Assembly: GCA_965219325.1 (NCBI GenBank)
Contig: OZ244723.1
Location: 1,130,158 to 1,194,157 of the forward strand
DNA from: Dehalococcoidia bacterium
GTDB lineage: Bacteria > Chloroflexota > Dehalococcoidia > Lucifugimonadales > UBA2962
Length of the DNA: 64,000 nucleotides
Reading direction: 5' to 3'
A model generated the notes under the pieces. That model saw only the letters and a list, made by a program, of their open reading frames with translations. It was not told the origin of the DNA and did no database searches. A program made the position numbers and the translations under genes. Positions 6,291 to 46,162 of the stretch are shown piece after piece. How positions within the stretch are numbered: the stretch's first letter is position 1; each line of letters starts with the position of its first letter.

Positions 6291-6306
6291 CTCGTATCTC
6301 TGCGGT

Positions 6307-8923: not shown

Positions 8924-9118
8924 CTAAGCGACGATGGTGGCCGTCAAGGTCTGGTAGCCGCTTGCCCGCCACGCGTCCCGGCATGCACCGCCGGTGTGGT
9001 AGGAGCGTCCCGGCAGGGTGACGATCCGGCCGTCGCGAAGGTCGATGGGAGTCGTGTGGGCGGCCGGCTGGCCGGACCTTATGGGCAGGTTGCAGAGCGT
9101 GCATGTACTGGGGTTCAT
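8924..9118 (-). CDS. small Cys-containing hypothetical protein (64 aa)
   Basis: ATG preceded by AAGGAAGGGA. Has a CTLC motif near the N-terminus. Sits between the methyltransferase and helicase genes. Confidence 0.4.
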   Translation of the reverse strand: MNPSTCTLCNLPIRSGQPAAHTTPIDLRDGRIVTLPGRSYHTGGACRDAWRASGYQTLTATIVA

Positions 9119-9164
9119 AAGTGTGTCCCTTCCTTATACGTAGGTGTGCATGTCCTTGCTTCGG

Positions 9165-9212
9165 TCTGAGAAAGAGAGCGGGGCCCCTCCAGGTCTTGTC
9201 CGGAGGGGCCCC
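9165..9212 (-). terminator. hairpin GGGGCCCCTCC / GGAGGGGCCCC followed by a T-rich stretch on the minus strand
   Basis: 11-bp perfect stem read directly, located just after the methyltransferase stop codon. Confidence 0.45.
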
Positions 9213-9238
9213 GTGGGTGCGGCTGCGGCGAGAGCCGT

Positions 9239-30894: not shown

Positions 30895-30980
30895 ACCATT
30901 TCCCCCTGCACGGCCATGTATGCGGCCCCTTTTTGCGTTTTCGGCCCTGCGGTCGTGGGCGCTGCCTGAGCGCCGACTCC

Positions 30981-31226
30981 CTAGTCGGTGAACAGGTGGG
31001 CGAGGCCCAGGGGTCTCGCCAGGGCCACCAGCGCCATCATGTTCCGCATGCTGGGGCGAGCCCGTCCCTTCCTCCAGCGCCGCAGCGTCTCGTGGTGGAC
31101 GTCGAGACGACGGGCGATCTCCGCCCACGACAGGCCCGACTCCTCCTTGAACCGCTCCAGCCGCTCCGGGAAGTCGTGGGGGACCTGGTAGGTAACTCTG
31201 CTGTGATAAATGCGCTGTCGCGGCAT
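30981..31226 (-). CDS. small HTH protein (81 aa), member of a five-copy family in this window
   Basis: MPRQRIYHS..VPHDFPERLERFKEESGLSWAEIARRLDVHHETLRRWRKG...LGLAHLF. Confidence 0.65.
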   Translation of the reverse strand: MPRQRIYHSRVTYQVPHDFPERLERFKEESGLSWAEIARRLDVHHETLRRWRKGRARPSMRNMMALVALARPLGLAHLFTD

Positions 31227-32306
31227 CGGTCCTTCCGGAAGACGGCTGCAAGCTCCCTCCTACGGGGATGTCCGGGGCCGTCCGATATCCCCAGGCAGGA
31301 CGGTATGCGGAACGCAAGCTCACGCGGTCAGCCCGTCCCGGAGTCCTGTGGGAGGCCGCCGCTCTGCTTGTCGGAGGGCTGGGGCGGCCTCCCCCAGCTT
31401 CATCCATGTGTGCGGGCTTTCTTGTTGCCCTTCCTGCGGGCGGGGTCCGCGCGGGTACGCGTACACCCGCGCGGACCTTCCTCTCCTCCCGACGCCACAT
31501 GCCATCAGGAATTATCCGGCGGATCGGGCCCTTCCACGCATGGCCCCTCACCGAGTTCGTTGACCGCCGCCACACCGAATTTGACGGGTCCCACATAGAC
31601 GATCTTGAAGTATTTGAAACCCGTCGGGGTGCCGTCGGGGTGCTCTGGTGGCGTGGTGGATCCAGGGTGCTCCACCTCGTATTCGTCCAGCAGGTAGCCG
31701 CCGCAGCCCTCGCTGGCTGAGCCGTAGATGCGGAACTCCGTGATCCATTGCGCGCCGGTTCCGGTCTCGTCCGGCGCGTCCCACGACACGATTTGCCCAC
31801 CAATGCCGCTGACGGGCGAGTAGGACACAGACACATTGCGGACCGCGCCCGGGATCTCCGAGGGGCCCAGACCACCGGGCGGAACGGCAACTGCCAGCAA
31901 AATTTCACGCACCGACAGCGTGTAGGTGCCTGGGTCCAAGCCCGCTACTTCCAGGTGGTAGATGCCGGTCGCGGTCGCCGTGTAGGTCAGTCGGCTGTTA
32001 AGTCCCTCGCCGCCGTCGTCGTCCTCACTGATGTAGTGGGAGACGTTGAAGGAGTCGCCGTAGAGCGCCAGGATCGGGTCCGCCTGGGAGCCGCGGCCGG
32101 TGTCCGCGCCCTCCAGGTCGAACCGGTATCGCTTGCCCGCCTCCAGATTGACACGGAACCCGTCCAAATCCTCGCCAGGGTCGATGTTGCCCGTGGCCGA
32201 GGCCCCGACCTCGACCCGGCCGGTGGTGGTGGTGTCTCTGGGAAAGTCCGTGTCGGCCTCCGAGGCGCCGTTCGCGCCCAGCACGATCACCGACAGCGTG
32301 TAGGTG
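31197..32306. repeat. about 1.1-kb near-identical direct repeat, copy 1 (HTH 5' end, 279-bp spacer, last 267 codons of the giant gene)
   Basis: Matches 40309..41418 at a constant offset of 9112 nt, with only a handful of mismatches read by eye. Confidence 0.85.
31444..31477 (-). terminator. 12-bp GC hairpin GGTCCGCGCGGG / CCCGCGCGGACC 30 nt downstream of the giant gene 1 stop; identical copy at 40556..40589
   Basis: Perfect inverted repeat read directly. There is no clear U-tract, so terminator function is uncertain. Confidence 0.4.
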
Positions 32307-35300
32307 CCGGTCATGGTGGCTGTGCCGGCCGCAGCTATGTAGTAGGTCCCGTCCGCCGTGGGCGTGTAGATAACCCGGCCGTTTTTGCCCACACCGCCAT
32401 CGTTGCTCCTCGCATCGGATATCGCCTGTCCTCCCGCATCATACAACCCCCAAAGAAACGGATCCGCCAAGTTGCCTCGGCCGGTATCCGCCCCCTCCAC
32501 GTCGAACTGGTATCGCTTGCCCTTCTTCAGCTCGACCGCGAACCAGTCGACGTCGGCGTCCCTATCGACGTTCCCCGTGACCGAGCCGCCCACCTCGACC
32601 TCGCCGGTGGTGGTGGTGTCGGCGGGCAGGTCTTCGCCGTCGGGCTCCGAGACGTTGGTGGGCAGGTCCGTGGCGCCCTCGGCGACCCCTTGCGCGGGGA
32701 CGGCCGCGCCGCTGACGCTGAACTTCGTATACTCGCCGCTTTCTCCCGACCAATCGCCTAGGTCGGTGTGACTACGGGTTAGCCGCGCACCGGCGACGCT
32801 CCATCCCGTCGAATCGTCGTCAGCGGACCCTGAAGCCGTTACGCGTAGGGTGAGATGCGCCCGAGCGCCGCTGTAGGACTGAACCACAAAGTACGTCGTG
32901 CCGGGGTCCAGTACCGTGCCCCCTGGGGCGTTGAACGTGTTGACGCCGGTGGCCCAGGTATCCGTGGAATGCGTCAGCGTGGCGACCGGGGCGTCGGGCG
33001 TCGGTGGGGAGTCGCTGGTCGCGGACCACAGCGAGACCGTGACGTCGGCCGGGGTTTTGGGGACCGTGTCCACATCCAAGCTGATGCTGGCCAGGAAGTA
33101 TCCGTAGCGATCTGAGCCGGTGGTGAACCCCTGGGCGTTCTCAAAATCGCCAACGATTATTGCAAAATTCAGGTTGTTGGCTTGCCCGAGGTTGGTCAGG
33201 AGGTCGGTGACGGAATCCGGGACATTGCCGGAATCGTCCGGGGGATCGTCGGGCGTCATCTCCGCCGCCCGCGTCACGGTCACCGTGTAGGTCTGCGTCG
33301 AGGTGTCGTCCTCGGCCGTCACCTTCACCTTGATGACGGTGTCGCCCACCTCCAGCGCCACCTGGAAGTCGTCCTCCATGTCGTCCGCGTCGTCGAGCTC
33401 GTTGTCGTCCGTGTCTAGAATCTCGACCGTCGCGCTGGCGTGGTTCGTGGTCGGCGTCACCGTCACCTCGTCGACGCTGTTGGCGACCGACGCCGTGTAG
33501 ATGGCCGTGCCCGAGGCGAAGGCCGGGCTCAGCGTCACCCCCATGCCCAGCGACAGCCCGCTCAGCGTCGCGTCCGTCGAGAGCGCCGTCGCGTCGTCGT
33601 CCTCGATGGTTCCCGTCGCGGTCGGGTCCGTCTCCAGCTTCGCGTTCGACGACGGGCTCGACAGCGTCACCGTGAAGGTCTCGTCGCCCTCCTCGGTGGC
33701 GTCGTTCACCACCGGCACCTCGAACGTTCCCGTCGTGTCGCCGATCGCGACGGTCACCGTCCCCGTCTTCGTCGCCCCGAGGTCCGCCGCGACCGCCGTG
33801 TCGCCGGCCTCGATCGACGCCGTCCAGGTCGCCGTCACGGCCGTCGCGGCCGCTTCCGACAGCGTCACCGTGAACTCCACTTCCCCATCGTTCTCGGCGT
33901 CCGAGGCATCCGCGACGCTCAGCGTCCGCGGGCGCACACGAATCGTGACGGTGTCCCCCGCAGACCAGGTCAGGCCCGACAGACCCCAAGAGTAGAGGCC
34001 GGTGGTGCTTTTCGTGGCACCGCTGAACTCGAATGGGGTGGCGGCGCCGTCGACCGTGAGCAGCAGGCCCGCCTTGTCATCGTCGGTGAGATCGGCGGTG
34101 AGCAAGACGTACAGGGTGCCCGTGGGGGTGGTCCCAGTTGGGACTTGGACGTAAGCGCCTTGGATCGTGTAGTCGTTGTCCCCGACCGAGAACACCGTTT
34201 CGTCAGGGTTGCCGGCAAGGCTGCCCGCGCTGAGGCCAGCTCCATCAGCAAAACCGTGTCCGACAAGCGCGTCGGCGGGGCTGGTCTTGATCTCTGCCAC
34301 CGTCACCGCGCCGCACCAGATGTCGCCGGTGTTCAGCGTGCACGGCGGCGGCTGCGTGATTTCACGCACCGACAGCGTGTAGGTGCCAGTAGTGGGGGCC
34401 GCGGTCTCGACAACCAGGTAGTAGGCGCCGGCCGCGGTCGGCGTGAAGACCAACTGGCTGTTTAGGTTCGCGGTGCTGATGTCGTCGTCTTCAGCAAGTT
34501 TGTTACTTCCAGACGCGTCGAAGATCTGTAGGAACGGGTCTCCCAGGGAGCCGCGGCCGGTCGGCGAACCCTCCAGGTCGAACTGGTAGGTCTTGCCGGC
34601 CTCCAGATCGACGCGGAACCAGTCTTTATCCGATGTGCTGGCGATGTTGCCCGTGGCCGAGGCCCCGACCTCGACGCGGCCAGAGGTCGTGTTGTCGGCG
34701 GGAAAGTCCGTGTCGGCCTCCGAGGCGCCGTTCGCGCCCAGCACGATCACCGACACCGTGTAGGTGCCGGTATCACTGGTTGCTGAGTCCGCGACCACGT
34801 AGTAGGTGCCGGTCGCCGTGGGCGTGTTGATAATCCGGGCGTTCTTGCCCACGCCCGCGTCATCGTTACCACTAATCAGGCTAGTCGCGTAGAGGCTTGC
34901 GGCCGGGTCCGGCAAGGTGCCGCGCCCGGTATCCGCCCCCTCCACGTCGAACTGGTATCTCGTGCCCGCCTCCAGTTCGACCTTGAACCAGTCTTTGTCC
35001 GTGCTAGGTTTGATGGCGCCCGTGACCGAGCCGCCCACCTCGACCTCGCCGGTGGTGGTGTTGTCGTTGGGAAAGTCGTCGCGCGTCACGGTCACCGTGT
35101 AGGTCTGCGTCGCGGTGCTGTCCTCGGCCGTCACCTTCACCTTGATGACGGTGTCGCCCACCGACAGCGCCACCTGGAAGTCGTCCTCCATGTCGTCCGC
35201 GTCGTCGAGCTCGTTGTCGTCCGTGTCCAGAATCTCGACCGTCGCGCTGGCGTGGTTCGTCGTCGGCGTCACCGTCACCTCGTCGACGCTGTTGGCGACC

Positions 35301-38300
35301 GACGCCGTGTAGGTGACCGTGCCCGAGGCGAAGGCCGGGCTCAGCGTCACCCCCGTGCCCAGCGACAGCCCGCTCAGCGTCGTTGGGCCGGTCGAGAGAG
35401 GTATCGCTTCGGTGCGCTGTTTGCCGTAAACGAGCATCTTCACCACCCAATTCTCGCCACTCCAGTTTGTTCCGTCCCTGGACTTCTGTGACTCATTGGC
35501 CACAAAGATGTTACTGTTCCCATCCTGGTCGTTGCTTGCTGTGTTCCGGAGTCGTATCCAACCGCCACTGAGACGTTGGATTACGATCGCATATCTCCCC
35601 TGTGGTCTGAGCGTCGTTCCTTCCGGCGCCGTGAATGCGTTGTCATGGCCTTCCCTGAACGCCGGTGGATCGCGAAAGTCGAACAGTTTTTCGTCGGGAA
35701 CCGGATCGCCGCCTCCTTCTTGTTTTCCGGTGTAAAGCGACACGATGATTTCGTCCGGGCTGTCCGGTATACCTGAGTCGGCGGATGCAATGTATTCAAG
35801 GGCCAATGCAACGCTGTGCAGTTTGAAGCCGATGAAGCTGTCAGCCCCCTGGATGACATTAAAACTCTGAGCCCACCAGTTATAGTTGTCTTCACCCACC
35901 TTAAAGTTGTCCTGATCACTCTCACTGGTGGTGTAGGTAAGCCGGTCGAGATCGTAGCCGTGGATCGTGAAGACAGGAATCCGCGTCGGGGTTTGCGTGA
36001 CGGAGTCCGGCCACGGGTCGTCGGGGTTGCTTAGATCCTGGTATCGCACGGCTGAGTTAAGGATCCACCAGTTGCTGTCAACGCGGCTTTGACCGTCCGC
36101 GTCAGTGTTCGTTATGTAATATTCCGTGCTGCCCGAGCCATCTGATTCGATGACCACGAAGTAGACCCTATCGTCGTGCAGGTAAAAGGGCTCGGGCGGA
36201 GTGAAGGTGTTGATTTGGTTGTTACCGTCTTTGAATGCCGATGGATTATCGAACTCGAAATATTTATTATTCGGTCGCCAATCATCATCTCCATCATCAT
36301 TACCACCTGGTCTATACCCGTCCCAAAGAGACACCGTAACGGGAACGACCGGCTTGGCGCTAAACATCAAATCGAGCGCGGTGAGCGCGTAGCCGCCAGT
36401 GTCATCGCCAATCTGAAAACCGACAGCGAAGCTGATTGATCCAACGGTGGTCTGCTCGAAGGTAGTGGTTTGCGTAGTGTTGCCCACCATTGCCGCCGCC
36501 GCCGTCGCCCGGTTGTTGATCGTGCCCGTCGCGGTGGTGTCCGTGGTCAGCGTCGCGTTATTCGGGTTTGAAATCGTCAGCGTGAAGGTCTCGGCGCTCT
36601 CGCTCGCGTCGTCCTCCGTCGTCTGGACCTCGATCGTCCCGGTGGCGGTATTGTCGGCCGCCGCGATGGTCAGCGTGCCGCTCTTCGTCGTGAAGTCCAC
36701 GCCCGAGGTGGCGTCGTCTCCGGTCGCCACCGACGTCGCGTAGTCCACCATCACGTCGCGGCCGCTCACCGCCGACAGCGTCACCACGAACTCCACCGCG
36801 TCACCCTCGGTCGCCGCCGCGTTGGCCACCGTCACGGTCGGCGTCGGGTCGTCGTCCTCGATGGTTCCCTTCGCCGTCGGGTCCGTCTCCAGCTTGGCGT
36901 TCGACGACGGGCTCGACAGCGTCACCGTGAAGGTCTCGTCGCCCTCGTCGGTGGCGTCGTTCACCACCGGCACCGTAAACGTTTCCGTCGTGTCGCCGAT
37001 CGCGACGGTCACCGTCCCCGTCTTCATCGACCCGAGGTCCGCCGCGGCCGCCGTGTCGCCGGTCTTGATCGAGGCCGTCCAGGTCGCCGTCACCTCCTCT
37101 GTGGCCGCTTCCGACAGCGTCACCGTGAATTCCACTTCCCCATCGTTCTCGGCGTCCGAGGCATCCGCGACGCTCAGCGTCCGCGGGCGCCGCACACGAA
37201 TCGTGACGGTGTCCCCCGCAGACCAGCTCAGGCCCGACAGACCCCAAGAGTAGAGGCCGGTGGTGCCTTTCGTGGCACCGCTGAATGCGAACGTGGTGGC
37301 GGCGCCGTCGACCGTGAGCACCAGGCCCGCCTTGTCATCGTCGGTGAGGTCGGCGCTGAGCAAGACGTACAGGGTGCCCGTGAGGGTGGTCCCAGTTGGG
37401 ACTTGGATATAAGCGGCACTGATCGTGTAGTCGTTGTCCCCGACCGAGAACATCGTGGCGTCAGGGTAGCCGGCAAGGCCGCCCGCGCTGAGGCCAGCTC
37501 CATCAGCAAAACCGTGTCCGACAAGCATGTCGGCGCTAGACTTGAGCTCTCCCACCGTCACCACGCCGCACCAGATGTCTCCGGTGTTCAGCGTGCATGG
37601 CGGCGTCGTGATGTCACGCACCGACAGCGTGTAGGTGCCCGTCCCCCCGGTGACCCCGCTAACCGCTACCAGGTAGTAGGTGCCGGCCGCGGTCGGCGTG
37701 TAGACGGTCTGGCTGTCGTAGATGTCGTTAGAGGGGTCGACATCGTCATTCTCGGTGCCGTCAATCTCGGTGCCGGATGAGTCGCGGATATTGAGCAGAT
37801 AAGGGTTTTCCAAGGTGCCGCCGCCGCCACCAATGCCCTTCAGGTCGATCTGGTAGGTCTTGCCCGCCTCCAGATCGACGCGGAACCAGTCATAGTCATT
37901 GGCGATGCCGATGTTGCCCGTGGCCGATGCGCCGACCTCGACGCGGCCAGAGGTCGTGTTGTCGGCGGGAAAGTCCGTGTCGGCCTCCGAGGCGCCGTTC
38001 GCGCCCAGGAGGATCACCGACAGCGTGTAGGTGCCTGTAAGATTGTCATTGATTTCGGTCACCACTGGGTAGAAGTCGCCGGACGCGGCCGGGGTGTAGA
38101 TCATCCGGGCGTTGGCGCCCACGCCGCTGTTGTCGTCGCCCTGTTGGCCGTTGTCACCCTGAAGCTGGCTCCCGATATTGTCGTAGAGGCCCAGGTGCGG
38201 GTCCGCCAGGGTGCCCCGGCCGGTGTCCGCGCCCTCCAGATCCAACTGGTATCGCGTGCCCGCCTCCAGTTCCACTTTGAACCGGTCGTAGTCGCCGACC

Positions 38301-40249
38301 GTCCCGATGTTGCCCGTTACTGTGCCGCCCACCTCGACCTCGCCGGTGGTGGTGTTGTCGTTGGGAAAGTCGTCGCGCGTCACGGTCACCGTGTAGGTCT
38401 GCGTCGAGGTGCCGTCCGCGGCCGTCACCTTCACCTTGATGACGGTGTCGCCCACCGACAGCGCCACCTGGAAGTCGGCCGCATTGTCGTCCGCGTCCGC
38501 GAGCGCATTGCCGTCCGCGTCCTGAATTTCGGAATCGGCGCTGGCGTGGTTCTCCGTCACCGTCACTGTCACCTCGTCGACGCTGTTGGCGACCGACGCC
38601 GTGTAGGTGACCGTGCCCGAGGCGAAGGCCGGGCTCAGCGTCACCCCCGGGCCCAGCGACAGCGCGCTCAGCGTCGCGTCCGTCGAGAGCATGGGCGTGA
38701 TGTCACGCACCGACAGCGTGTAGGTGCCCGTGAGGTTGGCAGCACCAGTGGTGGCCCTGAGGTAGTGGGCGCCGGCCGAGGCCGCAGTGTAGACCATCTG
38801 GCTGTTGAGGTCCGTGCCGCTGTCGTCGTCTACGAGAAGGAAGGTTGCGGACCCGTCATAGAGCGACAGGAACGGGTCTACCAAGGTGCCGCGGCCGGAA
38901 TCCGCCCCTTCCAGGTCGAACTGGTAGGTCTTGCCCGCCTCCAGATCGACGCGGAAATAGTCTTTATCCGATGTGCTGGCGATGTTGCCCGTGGCCGAGG
39001 CCCCGACGTCGACGCGGCCGGTGGTGGTGGCGGTGGCGGGGAAGTCCGTGTCGGCCTCCGAGACGCCGTTTGCGCCCAGCACGATCACCGACAGCGTGTA
39101 GGTGCCGGTCGTGGTGGCTGTGCCGGACGCAGCTATGTAGTAGGTGCCGTCCGCCGTGGGCGTGTAGATAACGCGGCCGTTTTTGCCCACACCGCCATCG
39201 TTGCTCCTCGCACCGGATATCGCCTGTCCTCCCGCATCATACAACCCCCAAAGAAACGGATCCGCCAAGTTGCCGCGGCCGGTATCCGCCCCCTCCACGT
39301 CGAACTGGTATCTCGTGTCCGCCTCCAACTCGACGCGGAACCAGTCGACGTCGGCGTCCCTATCGACGTTCCCCGTGACCGAGCCACCGACGTCCACCTC
39401 GCCGGTGGTGGCGGTGCCTTCGGGCAGGTCTTCGCCGTCGCCCTCCGAGACGTTCGCCCGCCCGCCGGGACCGGGCGGCGTGGCATGGCCGGGCGCTCCG
39501 CCGCCGTCCTCCCCGTCCTGGTCGTCGCCTTCGACGGCCTCCGGCGCGGTCGGCGTGTCGATGTGGAACCAGCGGGAGCGCGGGCTCACCCCGTGCTCGT
39601 TGATGGCCTTGATGCGGTAGGTGTAGGTGGTCTCAGCAACCACTGTGTCGTCGGTATAGGTGGTGGCGGCGGTGCCCGTGTCCGCGACCAATTCTCTGAA
39701 CTCGCCCTTTCTGTCGGTATCCCGGTTACGGCGCAGGATCACGTAGCCGGTGATGGTGTCGTCGCCCGGCTCGTCCCAGGTGAGGACCACCTGGTCGTGG
39801 GTCGCCGTGGCGTCCAGGCCCCTGGGCTTGTCGGGCCGCTCGGGGGCCGCCGGTATGTCGATGTGGAACCAGCGGGAGCGCTCGCTCACCCCGTGCTCGT
39901 TGGTCGCCTTGATGCGGTAGGTGTAGGTAGTATTGGCCTTTACGCTGTCGTCGGTATAGGTGGTCGCCGCCGTCCCAGTGTCCGCCACGAGCTCACTGAA
40001 CTCGCCCCCGGTATCGTTCACGCGGACGCGCCGCAGGATCACGTAGCCGGTGATGGTGTCGTCGCCCGGGTCGTCCCAGGTCAGCACCACCGAGTCGTGG
40101 GTCGCCGTGGCGGAAAGGCCCGTGGGCTTGTCGGGCGCCGAGCCCTCCTGGGCCTGCACCGTGGAGAACAGCAGGGCCATCGCCAGGGCCAGGGCCGCTA
40201 TGGCGGCGAACAGGATGGGGAATCGTCGTCTATCGGTGCGAGTCATCAT
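31505..40249 (-). CDS. giant secreted repeat protein (2914 aa): signal peptide, 2 FN3-like domains, 8 PPC-type repeats in 4 pairs, 3 cadherin-like beta-sandwich repeats, Calx-beta-like repeats, unknown domains, C-terminal FN3-like domain
   Basis: N-terminus MMTRTDRRRFPILFAAIAALALAMALLF..VQAQ. FN3-like P.GL.A.A....V.L.WD.P...ITGY...R. PPC-type D.DWFRV.LEAG..YQFD.EG....GTL.DP.L.LYD......TYTLSV. Calx-like LSVADASDAENDGEVEFTVTLS. Confidence 0.9.
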   Translation of the reverse strand: MMTRTDRRRFPILFAAIAALALAMALLFSTVQAQEGSAPDKPTGLSATATHDSVVLTWDDPGDDTITGYVILRRVRVNDTGGEFSELVADTGTAATTYTDDSVKANTTYTYRIKATNEHGVSERSRWFHIDIPAAPERPDKPRGLDATATHDQVVLTWDEPGDDTITGYVILRRNRDTDRKGEFRELVADTGTAATTYTDDTVVAETTYTYRIKAINEHGVSPRSRWFHIDTPTAPEAVEGDDQDGEDGGGAPGHATPPGPGGRANVSEGDGEDLPEGTATTGEVDVGGSVTGNVDRDADVDWFRVELEADTRYQFDVEGADTGRGNLADPFLWGLYDAGGQAISGARSNDGGVGKNGRVIYTPTADGTYYIAASGTATTTGTYTLSVIVLGANGVSEADTDFPATATTTGRVDVGASATGNIASTSDKDYFRVDLEAGKTYQFDLEGADSGRGTLVDPFLSLYDGSATFLLVDDDSGTDLNSQMVYTAASAGAHYLRATTGAANLTGTYTLSVRDITPMLSTDATLSALSLGPGVTLSPAFASGTVTYTASVANSVDEVTVTVTENHASADSEIQDADGNALADADDNAADFQVALSVGDTVIKVKVTAADGTSTQTYTVTVTRDDFPNDNTTTGEVEVGGTVTGNIGTVGDYDRFKVELEAGTRYQLDLEGADTGRGTLADPHLGLYDNIGSQLQGDNGQQGDDNSGVGANARMIYTPAASGDFYPVVTEINDNLTGTYTLSVILLGANGASEADTDFPADNTTSGRVEVGASATGNIGIANDYDWFRVDLEAGKTYQIDLKGIGGGGGTLENPYLLNIRDSSGTEIDGTENDDVDPSNDIYDSQTVYTPTAAGTYYLVAVSGVTGGTGTYTLSVRDITTPPCTLNTGDIWCGVVTVGELKSSADMLVGHGFADGAGLSAGGLAGYPDATMFSVGDNDYTISAAYIQVPTGTTLTGTLYVLLSADLTDDDKAGLVLTVDGAATTFAFSGATKGTTGLYSWGLSGLSWSAGDTVTIRVRRPRTLSVADASDAENDGEVEFTVTLSEAATEEVTATWTASIKTGDTAAAADLGSMKTGTVTVAIGDTTETFTVPVVNDATDEGDETFTVTLSSPSSNAKLETDPTAKGTIEDDDPTPTVTVANAAATEGDAVEFVVTLSAVSGRDVMVDYATSVATGDDATSGVDFTTKSGTLTIAAADNTATGTIEVQTTEDDASESAETFTLTISNPNNATLTTDTTATGTINNRATAAAAMVGNTTQTTTFEQTTVGSISFAVGFQIGDDTGGYALTALDLMFSAKPVVPVTVSLWDGYRPGGNDDGDDDWRPNNKYFEFDNPSAFKDGNNQINTFTPPEPFYLHDDRVYFVVIESDGSGSTEYYITNTDADGQSRVDSNWWILNSAVRYQDLSNPDDPWPDSVTQTPTRIPVFTIHGYDLDRLTYTTSESDQDNFKVGEDNYNWWAQSFNVIQGADSFIGFKLHSVALALEYIASADSGIPDSPDEIIVSLYTGKQEGGGDPVPDEKLFDFRDPPAFREGHDNAFTAPEGTTLRPQGRYAIVIQRLSGGWIRLRNTASNDQDGNSNIFVANESQKSRDGTNWSGENWVVKMLVYGKQRTEAIPLSTGPTTLSGLSLGTGVTLSPAFASGTVTYTASVANSVDEVTVTPTTNHASATVEILDTDDNELDDADDMEDDFQVALSVGDTVIKVKVTAEDSTATQTYTVTVTRDDFPNDNTTTGEVEVGGSVTGAIKPSTDKDWFKVELEAGTRYQFDVEGADTGRGTLPDPAASLYATSLISGNDDAGVGKNARIINTPTATGTYYVVADSATSDTGTYTVSVIVLGANGASEADTDFPADNTTSGRVEVGASATGNIASTSDKDWFRVDLEAGKTYQFDLEGSPTGRGSLGDPFLQIFDASGSNKLAEDDDISTANLNSQLVFTPTAAGAYYLVVETAAPTTGTYTLSVREITQPPPCTLNTGDIWCGAVTVAEIKTSPADALVGHGFADGAGLSAGSLAGNPDETVFSVGDNDYTIQGAYVQVPTGTTPTGTLYVLLTADLTDDDKAGLLLTVDGAATPFEFSGATKSTTGLYSWGLSGLTWSAGDTVTIRVRPRTLSVADASDAENDGEVEFTVTLSEAAATAVTATWTASIEAGDTAVAADLGATKTGTVTVAIGDTTGTFEVPVVNDATEEGDETFTVTLSSPSSNAKLETDPTATGTIEDDDATALSTDATLSGLSLGMGVTLSPAFASGTAIYTASVANSVDEVTVTPTTNHASATVEILDTDDNELDDADDMEDDFQVALEVGDTVIKVKVTAEDDTSTQTYTVTVTRAAEMTPDDPPDDSGNVPDSVTDLLTNLGQANNLNFAIIVGDFENAQGFTTGSDRYGYFLASISLDVDTVPKTPADVTVSLWSATSDSPPTPDAPVATLTHSTDTWATGVNTFNAPGGTVLDPGTTYFVVQSYSGARAHLTLRVTASGSADDDSTGWSVAGARLTRSHTDLGDWSGESGEYTKFSVSGAAVPAQGVAEGATDLPTNVSEPDGEDLPADTTTTGEVEVGGSVTGNVDRDADVDWFAVELKKGKRYQFDVEGADTGRGNLADPFLWGLYDAGGQAISDARSNDGGVGKNGRVIYTPTADGTYYIAAAGTATMTGTYTLSVIVLGANGASEADTDFPRDTTTTGRVEVGASATGNIDPGEDLDGFRVNLEAGKRYRFDLEGADTGRGSQADPILALYGDSFNVSHYISEDDDGGEGLNSRLTYTATATGIYHLEVAGLDPGTYTLSVREILLAVAVPPGGLGPSEIPGAVRNVSVSYSPVSGIGGQIVSWDAPDETGTGAQWITEFRIYGSASEGCGGYLLDEYEVEHPGSTTPPEHPDGTPTGFKYFKIVYVGPVKFGVAAVNELGEGPCVEGPDPPDNS

Positions 40250-40338
40250 GGTTCCTCCTTGAACCGCACCAGCCGCTCAGGAAAGTCGGCTGGGAAGCCA
40301 GGGGGTCTTCTGCTGTGATAAATGCGCTGTCGCGGCAT
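40246..40338 (-). pseudogene. 30-codon 5' fragment of the small HTH gene, fused to and overlapping the giant gene 1 start
   Basis: MPRQRIYHSRRPPGFPADFPERLVRFKEEP*. Its AAGGAGGAA codons double as the RBS of the ATG at 40249. Confidence 0.7.
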
Positions 40339-41418
40339 CGGTCCTTCCGGAAGACGGCTGCAAGCTCCCTCCTACGGGGATGTCCGGGGCCGTCCGATAT
40401 CCCCAGGCAGGACGGTATGCGGAACGCAAGCTCACGCGGTCAGCCCGTCCCGGAGTCCTGTGGGAGGCCGCCGCTCTGCTTGTCGGAGGGCTGGGGCGGC
40501 CTCCCCCAGCTTTATCCATGTGTGCGGGCTTTCTTGTTGCCCTTCCTGCGGGCGGGGTCCGCGCGGGTACGCGTACACCCGCGCGGACCTTCCTCTCCTC
40601 CCGACGCCACATGCCATCAGGAATTATCCGGCGGATCGGGCCCTTCCACGCATGGCCCCTCACCGAGTTCGTTGACCGCCGCCACACCGAATTTGACGGG
40701 TCCCACATAGACGATCTTGAAGTATTTGAAACCCGTCGGGGTGCCGTCGGGGTGCTCTGGTGGCGTGGTGGATCCAGGGTGCTCCACCTCGTATTCGTCC
40801 AGCAGGTAGCCGCCGCAGCCCTCGCTGGCTGAGCCGTAGATGCGGAACTCCGTGATCCATTGCGCGCCGGTTCCGGTCTCGTCCGGCGCGTCCCACGACA
40901 CGATTTGCCCACCAATGCCGCTGACGGGCGAGTAGGACACAGACACATTGCGGACCGCGCCCGGGATCTCCGAGGGGCCCAGACCACCGGGCGGAACGGC
41001 AACTGCCAGCAAAATTTCACGCACCGACAGCGTGTAGGTGCCTGGGTCCAAGCCCGCTACTTCCAGGTGGTAGATGCCGGTCGCGGTCGCTGTGTAGGTC
41101 AGTCGGCTGTTAAGTCCCTCGCCGCCGTCGTCGTCCTCACTGATGTAGTCGGAGACGTTGAAGGAGTCGCCGTAGAGCGCCAGGATCGGGTCCGCCTGGG
41201 AGCCGCGGCCGGTGTCCGCGCCCTCCAGGTCGAACCGGTATCGCTTGCCCGCCTCCAGATCGACACGGAACCCGTCCAAATCCTCGCCAGGGTCGATGTT
41301 GCCCGTGGCCGAGGCCCCGACCTCGACCCGGCCGGTGGTGGTGGTGTCTCTGGGAAAGTCCGTGTCGGCCTCCGAGGCGCCGTTCGCGCCCAGCACGATC
41401 ACCGACAGCGTGTAGGTG
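40309..41418. repeat. about 1.1-kb near-identical direct repeat, copy 2
   Basis: See 31197..32306. Confidence 0.85.
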
Positions 41419-44400
41419 CCCGTCGTGCTGTCTGCGCCGGCCACAGCTATGTAGTAGGTGCCTTCCGCGTCGGGCGTGTTGATGACCCGGCCGTTCTTCC
41501 CCACACCGCCGTCGTTACTCCTCGCACCGGAGACCGCCTGTCCTCCCGCATCCTGCAACCCCCAAAGATGCGGATCCGCCAAGTTGCCTCGGCCGGTATC
41601 CGCCCCCTCCACGTCGAACTGGTATCGCTTGCCCTTCTTCAGCTCGACCGCGAACCAGTCGACGTCGAGAGCTGGGGCGATTTCGCCCGTGACCGAACCG
41701 CCGACCTCAACTCTACCGGTGGTGGTGATGCCTTCGGGCAGGTCTTCGCCGTCGGGCTCCGAGACGTTGGTGGAATCGGCTGGCGGGTCGGCGGAATCGT
41801 CGGGCGGCGGCGTGATGTCGCGCACCGACAGCGTGTAGGTGCCGGTGTCGGTTTCATCAAAATCTGCCACACGTAGGTAGTACGTGCCAGCCGTGGTCGG
41901 AGTGAATATCCCCCGGCTGTTCGCACCAATACCGCTGTTGACATCATCCAGAAGGTTGTCCTCGGACTCGTCGTAGAGTGTTAGCGCCGGGTCCGCCAGG
42001 GTACCGCGGCCGGTCGGCGCCCCCTCCAGGTCGATCTGGTAGCGCGTGCCCGCCTCCAGGACGACGCGGAAATAGTCTCGGTCGGCGAAGGAGCCGATGT
42101 TGCCCGTGACCGAGGCCCCGACGTCGACCCGGCCGGTGGTGGCGGTGGTGGCGGGCAGGTCCGTGTCGGCCTCCGAGACGCCGTTCGCGCCCAGCACGAT
42201 CACCGACAGCGTGTAGGTGCCTGTCACGCCGTTCGAGGAGGCGACTACGTAGTGAGAGCCGTCCGCGGGCGCCGTGAAGATCCTCCGGGCGTTGTTCCCT
42301 ATGCCGCTGTCAAGCGCGTCGGTGACTACATTGCCCAACGCATCGCGCATCCTGCTAAGAACCGGGTCTGTCAGGGTGCCCCGGTTGGTGTCCGCGCCCT
42401 CCAGGTCGATCTGGTATCGCTTGTCCTTCTTCAGATCGACGCGGAACCAGTCAATGTCGAAGACGCTGTCCATGTTGCCCGTGACCGAGCCGCCGACGTC
42501 GACCTGGCCGGTGGTGGTGTTGTCGGAGGGAAAGTCGTCGGGCGTCGTCGACCCCGACAGACGGACCGTGACCGTGGTCGTCGACGACCAGTCCAGGCCC
42601 GTATTCGCCCAAGAGTAGAGGCCGGTGCTCAATCTACTGGCATCGCTGAGCGCGCGGTCGGTAGTGACGCCGTCGATCTTGAAAACCAGGTTCTCCTTGT
42701 CATCGTCGGAGAGATCGGCGGTGAGCAATAAGAACAGGGAGCCATCGTTGTTGCCCCCTGGGGCTCCGACATAAAGGCCCCTGATCGTGTAGTCGTTGTC
42801 CCCGACCGAGAACATCGTGTCGCCGGGGTTGCCGACAAGACCGCCCGCGCTGAGACTACTGGTATCCGCAAACCCGTGTGAGACAAGCACGTCGGCGCTA
42901 GTCTTGAGCTCTCCCACCGTCACCACGCCGCACCAGAGGTCGCCGATGTTCAGCGTGCACGGTGGCGGGATCTCACGCACCGACAGCGTGTAGGTGCCCG
43001 TCCCCCCGGTCTCTGTCGTACTCGGTTCCAAGGTGTAGGTGCCGGTCGTGGTCGGCGTGTAGACTATCTGACTGTTTTTGTTCGTGCTGCTGATGTTCTC
43101 GTTGAACCCCACGACCGTTACGAATCGGTAGAGTTTTAGGTACGGATTCTCCAGGGTGCCGCGGCCGTTATGCGATCCTTCCAGGTCGAACTGGTAGGTC
43201 TTGCCCGCCTCCAGAGCGACATTGAACAAGTCCGTATCGCCGTTGAACCCGATCGTCCCCGTGACCGAGGCCCCGACGTCGACAGTGCTAACGTTGGTGT
43301 TGGAAAAGTCCGTGTCGGCCTCCGAGGCGCCGTTCGCGCCCAGCACGATCACCGACAGCGTGTAGGTGCCCGTCACGCCGTTCGAGGCGGCGACTACGTA
43401 GTGAGTGCCGTCCGCGGTCGCCGTGAAGATCGTCCGGGCGTTGTTCCCCACGCCGCTGTCATCGTTCTGCGTGCCCGTGATCGTATTGCCCCCCGCATCA
43501 CGCACTGCGTTGATAGTCGGGTCCGACACTGTGCCGCGGCCGGTAGGCGCACCCTCCAGGTCGATCTGGTATCGCGTGGTCTCCTCCAGCTCGACGAGGA
43601 ACCAGTCCGCGTCGCCGACGGACTCGATGTTGCCCGTGACCGAGCCGCCGATGTCGACCTTGCCGGTGGTGGTGGTGCCGGCGGGAAAGTCGTCGGGCGG
43701 CGACAGACGAACCGTAACCGTGGTCGTCGCAGACCAGTCCAGGCCCGACAGACCCCAAGAGTAGAGGCCGGTGGTGCCTTTCGTGGCGCCGCTGAACGCG
43801 AACGTGAGGGTGGTGTCGTCGACCGTGAGCACCAGGCCCGCCTTGTCATCCTCGCTGAGATCGGCGCTGAGCAAGACGTACAGGGTGCCCGTGACGGTGG
43901 ACCCAGTTGGGACTTGGATATAAGCGGCACTGATCGTGTAGTCGTTGTCCCCGACCGAGAACATCGTGTCGTCAGGGTAGCCGGCAAGGCTGCCCGCGCT
44001 GAGGCCAGCTCCATCAGCAAAACCGTGTGCGACAAGCACGTCGGCGTTAGTCTTGACCTCTGCCACCGTCACCACGCCGCACCAGACGTCGCCCGTGTTC
44101 AGCGTACACGGCGGCGGCGTGATGTCACGCACCGACAGCGTGTAGGTGCCGGCCGCGCTATTCGAGGCTGCCACCAGGTAGTAGACGCCGGCCGCGGTCG
44201 GCGTGAAGGTTATCTGGCTTTCGTAGATGTCGTTGTCCGGATCGACGTCGTCATTCTCGGTGCCGCTAATCGCGTTGCCGGATGAGTTGCGGATATTGAG
44301 CAGATAAGGGTCTTCCAAGGTGCCGCCGCCGCTATCTTCGCCCTTCTGGTCGATCTGGTAGGTCTTGCCCGCCTCCAGATCGACCTTGAACCAGTCCGCG

Positions 44401-45662
44401 TCGGTATCGGGGTCGATGTTGCCCGTGACCGAGCCGCCCACGTCCACCTCGCCGATGGTGGCGGTGGTGGCGGGAAAGTCCGTGTCGGCCTCCGAGGCGC
44501 CGTTCGCGCCCAGCAGGATCACCGACAGCGTGTAGGTGCCGGTATCTGACCCATTGGCATTCTGTGCCCGCACGTAGTAGGCGCCGGCCGCGGTCGGCGT
44601 GTAAATCCGCCGGGCGTTTTTGCCCACGCCCTCGTCGTTGCTCAAAGAACCGACAACTGCGTTGCTATAGTAGAGAGCCATCCTCGGGTCCGGTAGGGTA
44701 CCGCGGCTGGTATCCGCACCTTCAAGATCGATCTGGTATCTCGTGCCCGCCTCCAGCACGACCTTGAACCAGTCCCCGTCCGTCCCGGTTCCGATGTTGC
44801 CCGTGACCGAGCCGCCGACGTCCACCTCGCCGGTGGTGGTGTCGTCGGTCGGCAGGTCTTCGCCGTCGGGCTCGGAGACGTTGGCCCGCTTGCCGGGACC
44901 GCCGGGCGCGCCGTCGTCGTCCTCCCCGTCCTGGTCGTCGCCTTCGACGGCCTCCGGCGCGGCCGGCGTGTCGATGTGGAACCAGCGGGAGCGCTCGCTC
45001 ACACCGTGCTCGTTGATCGCCTTGATGCGGTAGGTGTAGGTAGTATTGGCCTGTACGCTGTCGTCGGTGTAGGTGGTCGCCGCCGCCCCCGTGTCCGCCA
45101 CCAGCACACTGAACTCGCCCCCGGTATCGTTCACGCGGACGCGCCGCAGGATGACGTAGCCGGTGATGGTGTCGTCGTCAGGGTCGTCCCAGGTGAGGAC
45201 CACCTGGTCGTGGGTCGCCGTGGCGTCCAGGCCCGTGGGCTTGTCGGGCCGCTCGGGGGCCGCCGGAATGTCGATGTGGGACCAGCGCGAGCGTTCGCTC
45301 ACCCCGTGCTCGTTGATCGCCTTGATGCGGTAGGTGTAGGTAGTGTTGGCCTTTACGGTAGCGTCGGTGTAGGTGGTCGCCGCTGTGCCCGTGTCCGCCA
45401 CGAGCTCACTGAACTCGCCCCCGGTATTGTTCACGCGCACGCGCCGCAGGATGACGTAGCCGGTGATGCTGGCGTCGCCCGGGTCGTCCCAGGTGAGGAC
45501 CACCTGGTCGTGGGTCGCCGTGGCGGAGAGGCCCGTGGGCTTGTCGGGCACCGAGCCCTCCTGGGCCTGGACCGGAGAGAACAGCAGGGTCATCGCCAGG
45601 GCCAGCGCCGCTATGGCGGCAATCAGGATGGGGAATCGTCGTCTATCGGTGCGAGTCATCAT
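40617..45662 (-). CDS. giant secreted repeat protein (1681 aa): signal peptide, 2 FN3-like domains, 8 PPC-type repeats in 4 pairs, two copies of the CTLNxGDxWCG domain, C-terminal FN3-like domain
   Basis: The first roughly 270 aa and last roughly 270 aa are highly similar or near-identical to giant protein 1. It has the same RBS context, AAGGAGGAACCATGATG. Confidence 0.9.
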   Translation of the reverse strand: MMTRTDRRRFPILIAAIAALALAMTLLFSPVQAQEGSVPDKPTGLSATATHDQVVLTWDDPGDASITGYVILRRVRVNNTGGEFSELVADTGTAATTYTDATVKANTTYTYRIKAINEHGVSERSRWSHIDIPAAPERPDKPTGLDATATHDQVVLTWDDPDDDTITGYVILRRVRVNDTGGEFSVLVADTGAAATTYTDDSVQANTTYTYRIKAINEHGVSERSRWFHIDTPAAPEAVEGDDQDGEDDDGAPGGPGKRANVSEPDGEDLPTDDTTTGEVDVGGSVTGNIGTGTDGDWFKVVLEAGTRYQIDLEGADTSRGTLPDPRMALYYSNAVVGSLSNDEGVGKNARRIYTPTAAGAYYVRAQNANGSDTGTYTLSVILLGANGASEADTDFPATTATIGEVDVGGSVTGNIDPDTDADWFKVDLEAGKTYQIDQKGEDSGGGTLEDPYLLNIRNSSGNAISGTENDDVDPDNDIYESQITFTPTAAGVYYLVAASNSAAGTYTLSVRDITPPPCTLNTGDVWCGVVTVAEVKTNADVLVAHGFADGAGLSAGSLAGYPDDTMFSVGDNDYTISAAYIQVPTGSTVTGTLYVLLSADLSEDDKAGLVLTVDDTTLTFAFSGATKGTTGLYSWGLSGLDWSATTTVTVRLSPPDDFPAGTTTTGKVDIGGSVTGNIESVGDADWFLVELEETTRYQIDLEGAPTGRGTVSDPTINAVRDAGGNTITGTQNDDSGVGNNARTIFTATADGTHYVVAASNGVTGTYTLSVIVLGANGASEADTDFSNTNVSTVDVGASVTGTIGFNGDTDLFNVALEAGKTYQFDLEGSHNGRGTLENPYLKLYRFVTVVGFNENISSTNKNSQIVYTPTTTGTYTLEPSTTETGGTGTYTLSVREIPPPCTLNIGDLWCGVVTVGELKTSADVLVSHGFADTSSLSAGGLVGNPGDTMFSVGDNDYTIRGLYVGAPGGNNDGSLFLLLTADLSDDDKENLVFKIDGVTTDRALSDASRLSTGLYSWANTGLDWSSTTTVTVRLSGSTTPDDFPSDNTTTGQVDVGGSVTGNMDSVFDIDWFRVDLKKDKRYQIDLEGADTNRGTLTDPVLSRMRDALGNVVTDALDSGIGNNARRIFTAPADGSHYVVASSNGVTGTYTLSVIVLGANGVSEADTDLPATTATTGRVDVGASVTGNIGSFADRDYFRVVLEAGTRYQIDLEGAPTGRGTLADPALTLYDESEDNLLDDVNSGIGANSRGIFTPTTAGTYYLRVADFDETDTGTYTLSVRDITPPPDDSADPPADSTNVSEPDGEDLPEGITTTGRVEVGGSVTGEIAPALDVDWFAVELKKGKRYQFDVEGADTGRGNLADPHLWGLQDAGGQAVSGARSNDGGVGKNGRVINTPDAEGTYYIAVAGADSTTGTYTLSVIVLGANGASEADTDFPRDTTTTGRVEVGASATGNIDPGEDLDGFRVDLEAGKRYRFDLEGADTGRGSQADPILALYGDSFNVSDYISEDDDGGEGLNSRLTYTATATGIYHLEVAGLDPGTYTLSVREILLAVAVPPGGLGPSEIPGAVRNVSVSYSPVSGIGGQIVSWDAPDETGTGAQWITEFRIYGSASEGCGGYLLDEYEVEHPGSTTPPEHPDGTPTGFKYFKIVYVGPVKFGVAAVNELGEGPCVEGPDPPDNS

Positions 45663-45923
45663 GGTTCCTCCTTGTGCTTGTGCGGGGATACGGGACGCAG
45701 CCCGTCCCGTCCCCAGGCGTCAGCGGACGCGGAGGACGCGGGCGTCGGGCGTTGCATGGTCGAAGGCTGTTTCGGGTGAGTGCGGGACGTGCGAAGCCCG
45801 CCGCAAGGCGTCCTTCAAGGACACTGAGAACTTCGGGCGCACGCAGAGAGAGCGGCGATGGGAGAGGATCGGGCCTGCCGGTATGAGCCGGAGGCGGCGA
45901 GGGGGCCAGAGCGGAGGGAAATC

Positions 45924-46158: not shown

Positions 46159-46162
46159 CTGC

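What the first reader, a model, noticed from the sequence alone, without database searches (positions are those of the whole stretch)
40246..40338. Duplication junction: truncated HTH gene fused through an AAGGAGGA microhomology that now serves as the RBS of giant gene 1
Downstream of giant gene 2 the small HTH gene restarts (ATG 40338, MPRQRIYHS...). It ends after 30 codons in ...CGG TTC AAG GAG GAA CCA TGA, where CCATGATG contains the start of giant gene 1. The intact HTH gene reads CGGTTCAAGGAGGAGTCG at the same point, and the region upstream of giant gene 2 reads GCACAAGGAGGAACCATGATG. The crossover therefore falls exactly in the shared AAGGAGGA. Codons 11-17 of the fragment (RPPGFPA versus VTYQVPH) are much more diverged than the adjacent 1.1 kb. 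That places a gene-conversion boundary at about codon 10. This is a readable molecular scar of how the tandem array formed and was later homogenised.
Basis: seen in the sequence. Interest (0 to 1): 0.6.

Follow-up and report, generated by a model that had tools for sequence, protein, structure and literature searches.

The report
Recombination scar between two surface-protein genes
A 30-codon stump of a small regulator gene is fused, through a shared 9-base CAAGGAGGA, to the ribosome-binding site of a giant surface-protein gene in a Dehalococcoidia mobile element; it is a genuine but ordinary illegitimate-recombination scar, and its "diverged" codons are the original sequence, because it is the neighbouring intact regulator gene that was later overwritten by another allele.

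Summary
A truncated HTH gene (40338..40246, minus strand) ends in a TGA that overlaps the ATG of the 2914-aa gene. The sequence switches parent inside a 9-nt CAAGGAGGA. That string occurs only three times in the window: the HTH site, the junction and the RBS of the 1681-aa gene.

The same junction is present in two other Dehalococcoidia assemblies (L029, L048), so it is inherited and not an assembly artefact. There it follows a different upstream gene. Single-copy relatives (kinase, one giant gene, intact HTH) are the common state and carry both CAAGGAGGA sites. This fits a head-to-tail, duplication-type illegitimate exchange.

The "gene-conversion boundary at codon 10" is wrong. The fragment is 100% identical in protein, and differs at 1 of 78 nt, from the intact "F" HTH allele of relatives L028 and L029 (L030: same protein, 3 of 78 nt). 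The window's intact HTH is the recombinant. It is F-type up to CDS nt 21 and a different "V" allele from nt 31 to about 75 nt past the stop.

Homogenisation of the adjacent 1.1 kb is modestly supported (7 shared window-specific sites against 2 orthology sites). This is a known kind of event, of low to moderate interest.

The parts
40246..40338 (-). Truncated HTH gene: 29 sense codons of the 'F' allele plus a CCA codon and a TGA. It lacks the helix-turn-helix domain.
   Evidence: tblastn gives 100% identity to residues 1-29 of the intact F-HTH of L029. The Pfam HTH_31 match of the intact protein spans residues 21-75.
40253..40261 (-). CAAGGAGGA, the 9-nt microhomology at the join point. It is also the Shine-Dalgarno sequence of the 2914-aa gene.
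   Evidence: Three-way alignment. Only 3 copies in the window against 0.58 expected.
31141..31149 (-). Parental site 1: CAAGGAGGA inside the intact HTH gene (codons F-K-E-E). It is conserved across the HTH family.
45666..45674 (-). Parental-type site 2: CAAGGAGGA at the RBS of the 1681-aa gene, preceded by the native 5'UTR.
   Evidence: The same RBS and 5'UTR are found in single-copy relatives L050, L052 and L053.
31505..40249 (-). Giant gene 1 (2914 aa; fn3, cadherin-like, PPC and Calx-beta domains). It is 99.1-99.4% identical to the orthologue in L029.
40617..45662 (-). Giant gene 2 (1681 aa; fn3 and PPC domains). Orthologues lie in L028 and L030, where it is followed by an intact F-HTH.
30981..31226 (-). 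Intact 81-aa XRE-type HTH gene. It is a recombinant: F lineage in codons 1-7 and upstream, V lineage from codon 11.
   Evidence: Pfam hits. Informative-site alignment. It differs from V-type proteins of L001, L003 and L004 only by H7Y, an F-lineage residue.
31197..31205 (-). Crossover interval of the F-to-V switch (CACAGCAGA, CDS nt 22-30).
   Evidence: Last F-specific site is at CDS nt 21 (ATTTATCAC). First V-specific site is at nt 31 (GTT).
30908..31196 (-). V-allele tract: HTH codons 11-81 plus about 75 nt downstream. Beyond it the window matches neither F nor V loci.
   Evidence: Nearest V DNA is 93-94% identical (L003, L009, L005).
31197..32290 (-). Unit-1 copy of the near-identical tract: the 3' end of gene 1, the 278-nt spacer and the first 30 nt of the HTH.
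   Evidence: 4 mismatches to 40309-41402. 7 window-specific shared substitutions against 2 orthology sites.
40309..41402 (-). Unit-2 copy of the near-identical tract. Identity declines to ~90% by 41650 and is lost by ~41810.
40556..40589 (-). GC-rich hairpin (13 complementary bases in each arm by sequence; the fold draws a 14-bp stem) just after the gene-2 stop. It is terminator-like but has no U tract. A twin lies at 31444-31477.
   Evidence: The consensus terminator scan found none.
45681..45762 (-). Native 5'UTR of the gene-1/2 family. It is present once, before unit 2 only, as expected for a head-to-tail join.
   Evidence: 98.9-99.4% identical to L028 and L030. Also found in L050, L052 and L053.

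Best explanation
The feature is the join point of an illegitimate, microhomology-mediated recombination.

**Setting.** In these soil-type Dehalococcoidia the usual locus, which lies next to conjugative-transfer genes, reads: hybrid histidine kinase, one hypervariable giant surface-protein gene, a spacer, then an 81-aa XRE-type HTH gene. The string CAAGGAGGA occurs twice in such a unit: as the Shine-Dalgarno sequence of the giant gene, and as codons 26-29 (F-K-E-E) of the HTH gene.

**The event.** An unequal exchange between these two sites (sister copies, or two different alleles of the element) joined the end of one unit to the start of the next. This left a 29-codon HTH stump fused to the RBS of the downstream giant gene (inferred mechanism; the structure is shown). 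The event predates this genome, because the identical junction in front of a 99%-identical gene 1 occurs in two other assemblies.

**Later changes in this genome.**
- The 3' 1.1 kb, spacer and HTH 5' end of the two units are nearly identical. This reflects either gene conversion or retention since the join (inferred).
- The intact HTH downstream was recombined with a different family allele. The crossover lies in a 9-nt conserved stretch at codons 8-10, next to a rearranged conjugation-gene block (shown).
- This second change, not decay of the fragment, creates the 'diverged patch'.

**Likely consequence (inferred, untested).** Gene 1 has lost its own 5'UTR. It now sits behind the HTH gene's spacer and start. 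The stump ORF ends in an ATGA overlap with the gene-1 start. Gene 1 may therefore be expressed from the HTH promoter or by read-through, with translational coupling.
For: - **Junction anatomy:**
- **Specificity of the microhomology:** (3 copies, 0.58 expected).
- **Same junction elsewhere:** L029:873-898 and L048:2529-2554.
- **Gene 1 is 99.1-99.4% identical to L029**.
- **Intact F-HTH in relatives:** in L028-L030 it is identical in protein to the fragment; at DNA level L028/L029 differ at 1 of 78 nt and L030 at 3 of 78.
- **F-to-V switch** delimited to CDS nt 21-31. Y7 is unique among V-type genes.
- **Single-copy loci** with both CAAGGAGGA sites: L050, L052 and L053. L051, L001 and L049 are also kinase - gene - HTH.
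- **Other genomes have different join points at the equivalent place:** L028/L030 at HTH codon ~47 joined to the 5'UTR at -88; L049 at spacer nt 32 joined at -10; L042 at codon ~35. In L042 the post-join sequence is a copy of the region upstream of the preceding unit.
- **Concerted pattern in the 1.1 kb:**
- **Experimental precedent:** 9-bp microhomology gives precise tandem duplication with promoter capture (PMC11111574; PMC6614815).
Against: - In L029 and L048 the unit upstream of the same junction is a different gene ('gene 3') with a different spacer. A single simple duplication of gene 1 or gene 2 therefore cannot explain all genomes. Either the upstream unit was later exchanged, or the same 9-nt join formed more than once.
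- Gene 1 and gene 2 differ by about 7% in the first 500 nt and by more than 20% beyond, with rearranged domains. They were not recent identical copies.
- No promoter or terminator was detected by the consensus scans, so the expression consequence is unsupported.
- The V donor was not found (best DNA match 93.8%).
- Only a few informative SNPs separate the fragment variants.
Confidence: 0.7

Rival explanations
1. A tandem duplication arose in this lineage, the copies then diverged for a long time, and a recent gene-conversion tract homogenised the 1.1 kb and stopped at HTH codon 10. On this view codons 11-29 of the fragment are an old diverged relic.
For: 17 of 78 mismatches between the fragment and the local intact HTH, against 4 in ~1100 nt upstream. 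The two 1.1 kb copies share 7 window-specific substitutions.
Against: - The fragment is not diverged. It differs at only 1 of 78 nt from the intact HTH genes of L028 and L029 and is 100% identical in protein.
- The local intact gene matches a different allele class (V) from nt 31 to beyond the stop. It keeps the F-lineage Y7 and the F-lineage upstream spacer.
- The fragment carries the SNP states of intact F genes up to nt 60. Any conversion tract therefore ran on towards the junction rather than stopping at codon 10.
Confidence: 0.04
2. Deletion scar. An older array had a complete HTH gene and a full 5'UTR between two neighbouring giant genes. A deletion between the two CAAGGAGGA direct repeats removed the HTH 3' part and the next gene's leader. 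It may have happened more than once.
For: - The same junction sits behind different upstream genes (the window against L029 and L048).
- The fragment variants differ at 3 of 78 nt while gene 1 is 99.4% identical.
- Breakpoints in L028/L030, L049 and L042 look like nested losses of an internal HTH.
Against: - Among about 55 loci, no genome shows an intact internal HTH followed by a giant-gene leader.
- The common state is a single gene.
- The native 5'UTR is present only once in the window, as a head-to-tail join predicts.
- L042's post-join sequence is a copy of the upstream region of the preceding unit.
Confidence: 0.2
3. Assembly artefact. The tandem arrangement or the chimeric HTH was created by mis-joining reads from two strains across repeats.
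For: - The source appears to be a metagenome-type assembly.
- 1.1 kb repeats are present.
- The gene 2 - stump - gene 1 order was seen only in this window.
Against: - The junction itself is reproduced in two independent assemblies.
- The switch points lie in identical stretches of only 9 nt (F/V) and at most 26 nt (fragment SNPs to the junction). These are too short to mislead an assembler.
Confidence: 0.03
4. Programmed cassette system. The conserved HTH 5' end, or the flanking ...AAAGCCCGCACACATGG... motif, is a recombination site used by an element-encoded recombinase to swap or stack surface-protein cassettes.
For: - Recombination boundaries recur at the first ~30 nt of the HTH gene: the window F/V switch, the IGx-to-F switch in L029, and the V/F mosaics in L019 and L042.
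- A motif flanks the HTH gene on both sides.
- A serine recombinase lies at 55252-56865.
- Giant genes are hypervariable between conserved flanks.
Against: - Join points differ between genomes (codon 29, 35, 47, or none), unlike site-specific recombination.
- The junction shows plain microhomology with no inverted-repeat core.
- Patchy homologous recombination in conserved segments explains the mosaics.
Confidence: 0.05

Closest known systems
Short-homology-dependent illegitimate recombination join points of bacterial tandem duplications (Li & Bock 2019, PMC6614815; TDAH system, PMC11111574; the classical Salmonella and E. coli work cited there)
   Same: - A novel junction joins the distal end of a unit to its proximal start.
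- A few bases of identity (9 bp here, and 9 bp in the TDAH design) are present once at the join and once at each parental site.
- The downstream copy is placed behind a promoter-bearing segment from the other end of the unit (promoter capture).
   Different: - This is a natural, old join, inherited by several genomes.
- The two units are now different alleles rather than identical copies.
- The microhomology is itself a Shine-Dalgarno sequence.
- Promoter capture is only inferred here.
Concerted evolution by gene conversion between tandem paralogues (own knowledge: for example tufA/tufB, rRNA operons, surface-antigen families)
   Same: The two 1.1 kb 3' tracts in one genome are closer to each other (0.6%) than to their orthologues (1.6-2.3%). 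They share 7 private substitutions.
   Different: - The tract is already ~98% conserved across genomes and across gene types, so the extra homogenisation is small.
- Retention since a recent join, followed by replacement of the gene interior, explains it equally well.
Mosaic alleles of small XRE/Cro-like regulators at the edges of mobile elements (own knowledge: lambdoid immunity regions, ICE regulators)
   Same: - An 81-aa HTH gene lies next to conjugation genes.
- Segments recombine between alleles at conserved stretches (window F/V; L019 and L042 V/F; P0041).
   Different: The function of this HTH family is unknown. No operator or target has been defined, and the family is confined to Dehalococcoidia/Chloroflexota assemblies in the searches made.
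ATGA stop-start overlap giving translational coupling (own knowledge)
   Same: The TGA of the stump ORF (40248..40246) overlaps the ATG of gene 1 (40249..40247).
   Different: The overlap is an accident of the ATGATG start, which is also present at gene 2 where no upstream ORF exists. Coupling has not been tested.

Membership tests
Microhomology-mediated duplication-type join point | The junction sequence matches one parent on the left and another on the right, and homology does not continue past the join on either side. | tested here: met
   Three-way alignment. To the intact HTH region, identity is 61 of 78 nt up to the junction (100% to the F allele in relatives) and noise after it. To the gene-2 RBS region, it is noise before and 78 of 80 after.
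Microhomology-mediated duplication-type join point | A short identical string is present at both parental sites and once at the join, beyond chance expectation. | tested here: met
   The 9-nt CAAGGAGGA occurs at 31141, 40253 and 45666 and nowhere else in the window on either strand. Expected 0.58.
Microhomology-mediated duplication-type join point | Head-to-tail units, with the upstream leader present only before the first unit and the distal remainder only after the last. | tested here: met
   The 5'UTR 45681-45762 occurs only before gene 2. HTH codons 30-81 occur only after gene 1.
Microhomology-mediated duplication-type join point | A single-copy arrangement carrying both sites exists in relatives. 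| tested here: met
   L050, L052 and L053 read kinase - one giant gene - intact F-HTH, with gcaCAAGGAGGA at the RBS and TTCAAGGAGGAG in the HTH.
Microhomology-mediated duplication-type join point | The two units were copies of one another when joined (a true duplication, rather than a join of two alleles or a deletion). | tested here: inconclusive
   The units differ by 7% to more than 20% outside the 3' tract. The same join follows a different gene in L029 and L048. No pre-deletion intermediate was found.
Gene-conversion (concerted evolution) tract | Paralogues within the genome are more similar than orthologues, with shared private substitutions. | tested here: met
   0.62% against 1.6-2.3%. 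Site patterns: aabbb 7 against ababb 2. The effect is modest.
   The identity drop at codon 10 comes from the F-to-V allele switch in the intact gene. The fragment carries intact-F SNP states up to nt 60.
XRE-type helix-turn-helix regulator (Pfam HTH_31 / HTH_3) | Profile match above the curated cut-off. | tested here: met
   Intact gene: HTH_31 34.0 bits (cut-off 27) and HTH_3 33.1 bits (cut-off 23), residues 21-75. The fragment ends at residue 29 and so lacks the domain.
Recombinant (mosaic) allele | Contiguous blocks of informative sites agree with two different allele lineages, with a single switch point. | tested here: met
   At least 300 nt upstream plus CDS nt 1-21 match F loci (one difference, CDS nt 7). 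CDS nt 31 to the stop plus 75 nt matches V loci. The switch lies within CACAGCAGA.
Site-specific recombination cassette system (integron- or shufflon-like) | The same precise recombination site at every cassette boundary. | tested here: not met
   Join points differ among genomes: HTH codon 29, ~35, ~47, or within the spacer.

The most novel reading that the evidence does not exclude
The kinase - giant surface-protein gene - HTH locus next to the conjugation genes of Dehalococcoidia is a dedicated diversification hotspot. Conserved flanks act as portable homology for swapping whole adhesin-like cassettes between strains. These flanks are the leader and signal peptide on one side, and the C-terminal 1.1 kb, spacer and first ~30 nt of the HTH gene on the other. 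The SD-like CAAGGAGGA inside the HTH gene makes head-to-tail stacking recurrent. Each stacked gene is thereby placed under the HTH gene's promoter with translational coupling, tying adhesin expression to the element's regulator.
Probability: 0.2. Interest if true: 0.5.

Novelty: new member of a known kind. Interest (0 to 1): 0.3.

Why it matters
This is a clean natural example of a microhomology join point whose history can be read from relatives, in an uncultured lineage where almost nothing is known about genome dynamics. It shows that giant surface-protein genes next to conjugative elements of Dehalococcoidia are exchanged, stacked and homogenised. It also shows that a small regulator gene at the element edge is a recurrent crossover site. 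Methodologically, it is a caution: a "diverged patch" next to a duplication may mean that the intact copy changed, not the relic. It does not reveal a new mechanism.

Tried and rejected
- **Annotated relatives:** a megablast of 28000-47000 against plasmids found no match.
- **Exact-protein look-ups:** the window's HTH and both giant proteins are not on record.
- **Pattern scans:** the junction and the F-patch patterns gave 0 hits in JGI metagenome contigs and 0 in viral contigs.
- **RNA elements:** an Rfam scan of 30400-46300 at E<=1 found nothing, and the window has no tRNA. No known RNA or tRNA integration target explains the spacer.
- **Promoters and terminators:** the sigma-70 and terminator consensus scan of 40150-40750 found none.
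- **Giant-gene N-terminus search:** it returned mostly short, frameshift-split fragments. Only L048 and L049 were useful.
- **Inversion hypothesis:** I considered an inversion between two inverted HTH paralogues as the source of the F/V chimera. No reciprocal V5'/F3' gene is present in the window, although the conjugation block is inverted relative to relatives. This is left open.
- **Scar age:** I considered that the scar is much younger than the gene 1 / gene 2 split. This is not significant once the first 500 nt are used for comparison (7% divergence against 1-5%).
- **First script:** my first regex survey of HTH starts was too strict and had to be redone.


Full report
**Observation**

All relevant genes lie on the minus strand. 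Reading 5' to 3' on that strand, the order is as follows:
- a native leader (45762..45681);
- CAAGGAGGAACCATGATG and a 1681-aa gene ("gene 2", 45662..40617);
- a 278-nt spacer;
- an ATG at 40338 that opens MPRQRIYHSRRPPGFPADFPERLVRFKEEP*;
- a 2914-aa gene ("gene 1", 40249..31505);
- the same spacer again;
- an intact 81-aa HTH gene (31226..30981).

The stump's TGA (40248..40246) overlaps the first ATG of gene 1 in an ATGA arrangement.

A gapless three-way alignment shows that the junction sequence follows the HTH region up to CAAGGAGGA and the gene-2 RBS region from CAAGGAGGA onward. There is no homology beyond the join on either side. The shared string is 9 nt. It occurs only at these three places on both strands of the window, against 0.58 expected.

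**What the genes are**

- The small gene is an XRE-type HTH (HTH_31 34 bits, HTH_3 33 bits).
- The giant genes encode secreted multi-domain proteins with fn3, PPC, cadherin-like and Calx-beta domains.
- They are diverged paralogues: about 93% identical for the first 500 nt, 75-85% over the next few hundred nt, no colinear alignment through the repeat-rich middle, and near-identical at the 3' end.
- On one side lie conjugation genes: VirB4/TraG-like, a coupling protein, Replic_Relax and TrbL.
- On the other side lie a GAF-PAS hybrid histidine kinase, a PIN protein, an ImmA/IrrE-like peptidase and a large serine recombinase.
- All relatives found are Dehalococcoidia MAGs.

**The decisive comparison**

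A genome-collection scan with the HTH protein gave 45 loci. Three of them (L028, L029, L030) carry sequence 97-99% identical to the 3' end of gene 2, the spacer and the stump, including the "diverged" codons. There it continues into an intact 81-aa HTH gene: MPRQRIYHSRRPPGFPADFPERLVRFKEESDLPWAEIHRRL.... I call this the F allele.

The stump is 100% identical in protein to F residues 1-29. It differs from the L028 and L029 genes at 1 of 78 nt. So the stump is not diverged.

The window's intact HTH is the odd one:
- Its upstream spacer and its CDS up to nt 21 (ATTTATCAC, giving Y7) match the F lineage; the only difference is CDS nt 7, which the stump shares.
- From nt 31 to about 75 nt past the stop it follows a different allele class, V (VTYQVPH...ERLERF...), found in L001, L003-L015 and others.
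- Its protein equals the V proteins of L001, L003 and L004 except for H7Y. No other V-type gene has Y7.

The crossover therefore lies within the 9-nt CACAGCAGA (31205..31197). Immediately beyond the V tract the window matches neither group. The 383-aa gene that follows the HTH in nearly all relatives is absent. The conjugation block is inverted relative to the HTH compared with L050 and L029.

Mosaicism is common in this family. L019 and L042 combine a V-type N-terminus with an F-type remainder, and P0041 combines V with a third type.

**Age and context of the junction**

The identical junction (GCGGTTCAAGGAGGAACCATGATGAC) is present in L029 and in an independent, low-coverage contig, L048. 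This rules out an assembly artefact for the join.

Gene 1 is 99.1-99.4% identical between the window and L029. In L048 and L029, however, the unit upstream of the stump is a different gene ("gene 3", with an fn3-fn3 C-terminus) and a different spacer (IGx). In L029 gene 3 is internally deleted.

The stump variants differ at 3 of 78 nt. At those sites the window's stump carries the states of the intact F genes of L028 and L029.

L028 and L030 have gene 2 alone, followed by the intact F-HTH.

**Single copy is the norm**

- Four further assemblies (L050-L053) read kinase - one giant gene of 1496-2222 aa - intact F-type HTH - conjugation genes. L001 and L049 are similar.
- L050, L052 and L053 carry both partners: gcaCAAGGAGGA at the RBS and TTCAAGGAGGAG in the HTH. 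The substrate for an unequal head-to-tail exchange therefore exists in the ordinary locus.
- Other genomes with two or more giant genes have different join points at the equivalent place:
  - L028/L030: HTH codon ~47 joined to the leader at -88.
  - L049: spacer nt 32 joined about 10 nt before the RBS.
  - L042: HTH codon ~35, followed by a copy (86%) of the region upstream of the preceding unit.
- Variable join points argue against site-specific recombination. They fit recurrent illegitimate duplication-type joins.
- Nested deletions from a larger array are not excluded, but no intact internal HTH was seen.

**Homogenisation**

In the last 1.1 kb (gene 3' end, spacer and HTH start) all five copies are within 1.6-2.3% of one another. 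These are the two window units plus L028, L029 and L030. That holds even between gene-1-type and gene-2-type genes in different genomes. The window pair differs by 0.62%.

Seven substitutions are private to, and shared by, the two window copies. Only two sites show the orthology pattern. Within-genome homogenisation, or retention since a recent join followed by replacement of one gene's interior, is therefore supported but modest. It probably extends to the junction.

**Mechanism and consequence**

- Shown: the structure, the microhomology, the inheritance of the junction, the recombinant HTH, and the single-copy relatives.
- Inferred: RecA-independent short-homology exchange as the mechanism. 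Experiments show that 9-bp borders give precise tandem duplication with promoter capture (PMC11111574; PMC6614815).
- Inferred: the order of events, with homogenisation before the F-to-V replacement.
- Untested: that gene 1, which lacks its own leader and follows a strong GC hairpin (40589..40556), is expressed from the HTH promoter with ATGA coupling. The consensus scans found no promoter or terminator.

**Verdict**

The microhomology join is supported. The codon-10 gene-conversion reading is refuted and replaced by an allele switch in the intact gene. This is a well-documented instance of known processes in an uncultured lineage, of low to moderate interest.

Noticed in passing
window 45924-45936 (minus strand): A run of 13 C about 260 nt upstream of the gene-2 start. 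The homologous tract in L029 has 9 C. It could be a slipped-strand phase-variation tract in the leader or promoter of the giant gene, or a homopolymer sequencing error.
   Followed up: no
window 30914-30931, 31404-31421, 40516-40533 (minus strand): A conserved motif (GAAAGCCCGCACACATGG / AAGGGGCCGCATACATGG) flanks the HTH gene upstream and downstream. There are 3 matches against 0.02 expected. It is also present upstream of HTH genes in L001, L002, L028 and L029. It may be an operator or an element boundary.
   Followed up: partly
window 6310-24459 compared with L050 and L029: The conjugation and accessory block is inverted relative to the HTH gene compared with relatives. Homologues of the L050 718-aa and 206-aa genes lie at 8421..6310 (-) and 19933..20442 (+). 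The 383-aa gene that normally follows the HTH is missing. A rearrangement breakpoint lies about 75 nt downstream of the HTH stop (~30908).
   Followed up: partly
window 29954-30253 vs 49390-49689; 49080-49379 vs 51488-51787: 88%-identical direct repeats. One lies inside the Replic_Relax gene and has a partner on the far side of the giant-gene array. This suggests partial duplication or a composite of two related mobile elements around the array.
   Followed up: no
window 53194-53388 and 53444-53671 (+ strand); 6116-6193 (+ strand): Two tandem distant paralogues of the HTH family (40-48% identity), and a 26-residue C-terminal HTH remnant next to the 718-aa gene homologue.
   Followed up: partly
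window 38676..36842 vs 35382..33587 (minus strand): An internal segmental duplication of about 1.8 kb (85% identity, ~3.26 kb spacing) inside gene 1, plus many ~380-nt domain repeats. This accounts for part of the size difference between gene 1 (2914 aa) and gene 2 (1681 aa).
   Followed up: partly
window 51939-52709, 54205-55044, 55252-56865: An ImmA/IrrE-like peptidase (M78), a PAPS-reductase-like protein and a large serine recombinase lie on the kinase side of the array. The whole region looks like an integrated conjugative element.
   Followed up: partly
L029:520-545 vs L048:2170-2195 vs window 45871-45890: A second microhomology join. The 14-nt CATACCGGCGGCCC links a 5' remnant of a surface gene to the last codons of gene 3 in L029, giving an internal deletion of gene 3. 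The window shares the 5' remnant.
   Followed up: partly
L050:2453-3787: Five tandem 84-codon ORFs (270-nt period) lie between the kinase gene and the giant gene in a single-copy relative. Their nature is unknown.
   Followed up: no
L028:4351-9722: The gene-2 orthologue is split into two ORFs (4351..6168 and 6201..9722). This is either a pseudogene or a long-read frameshift error.
   Followed up: no
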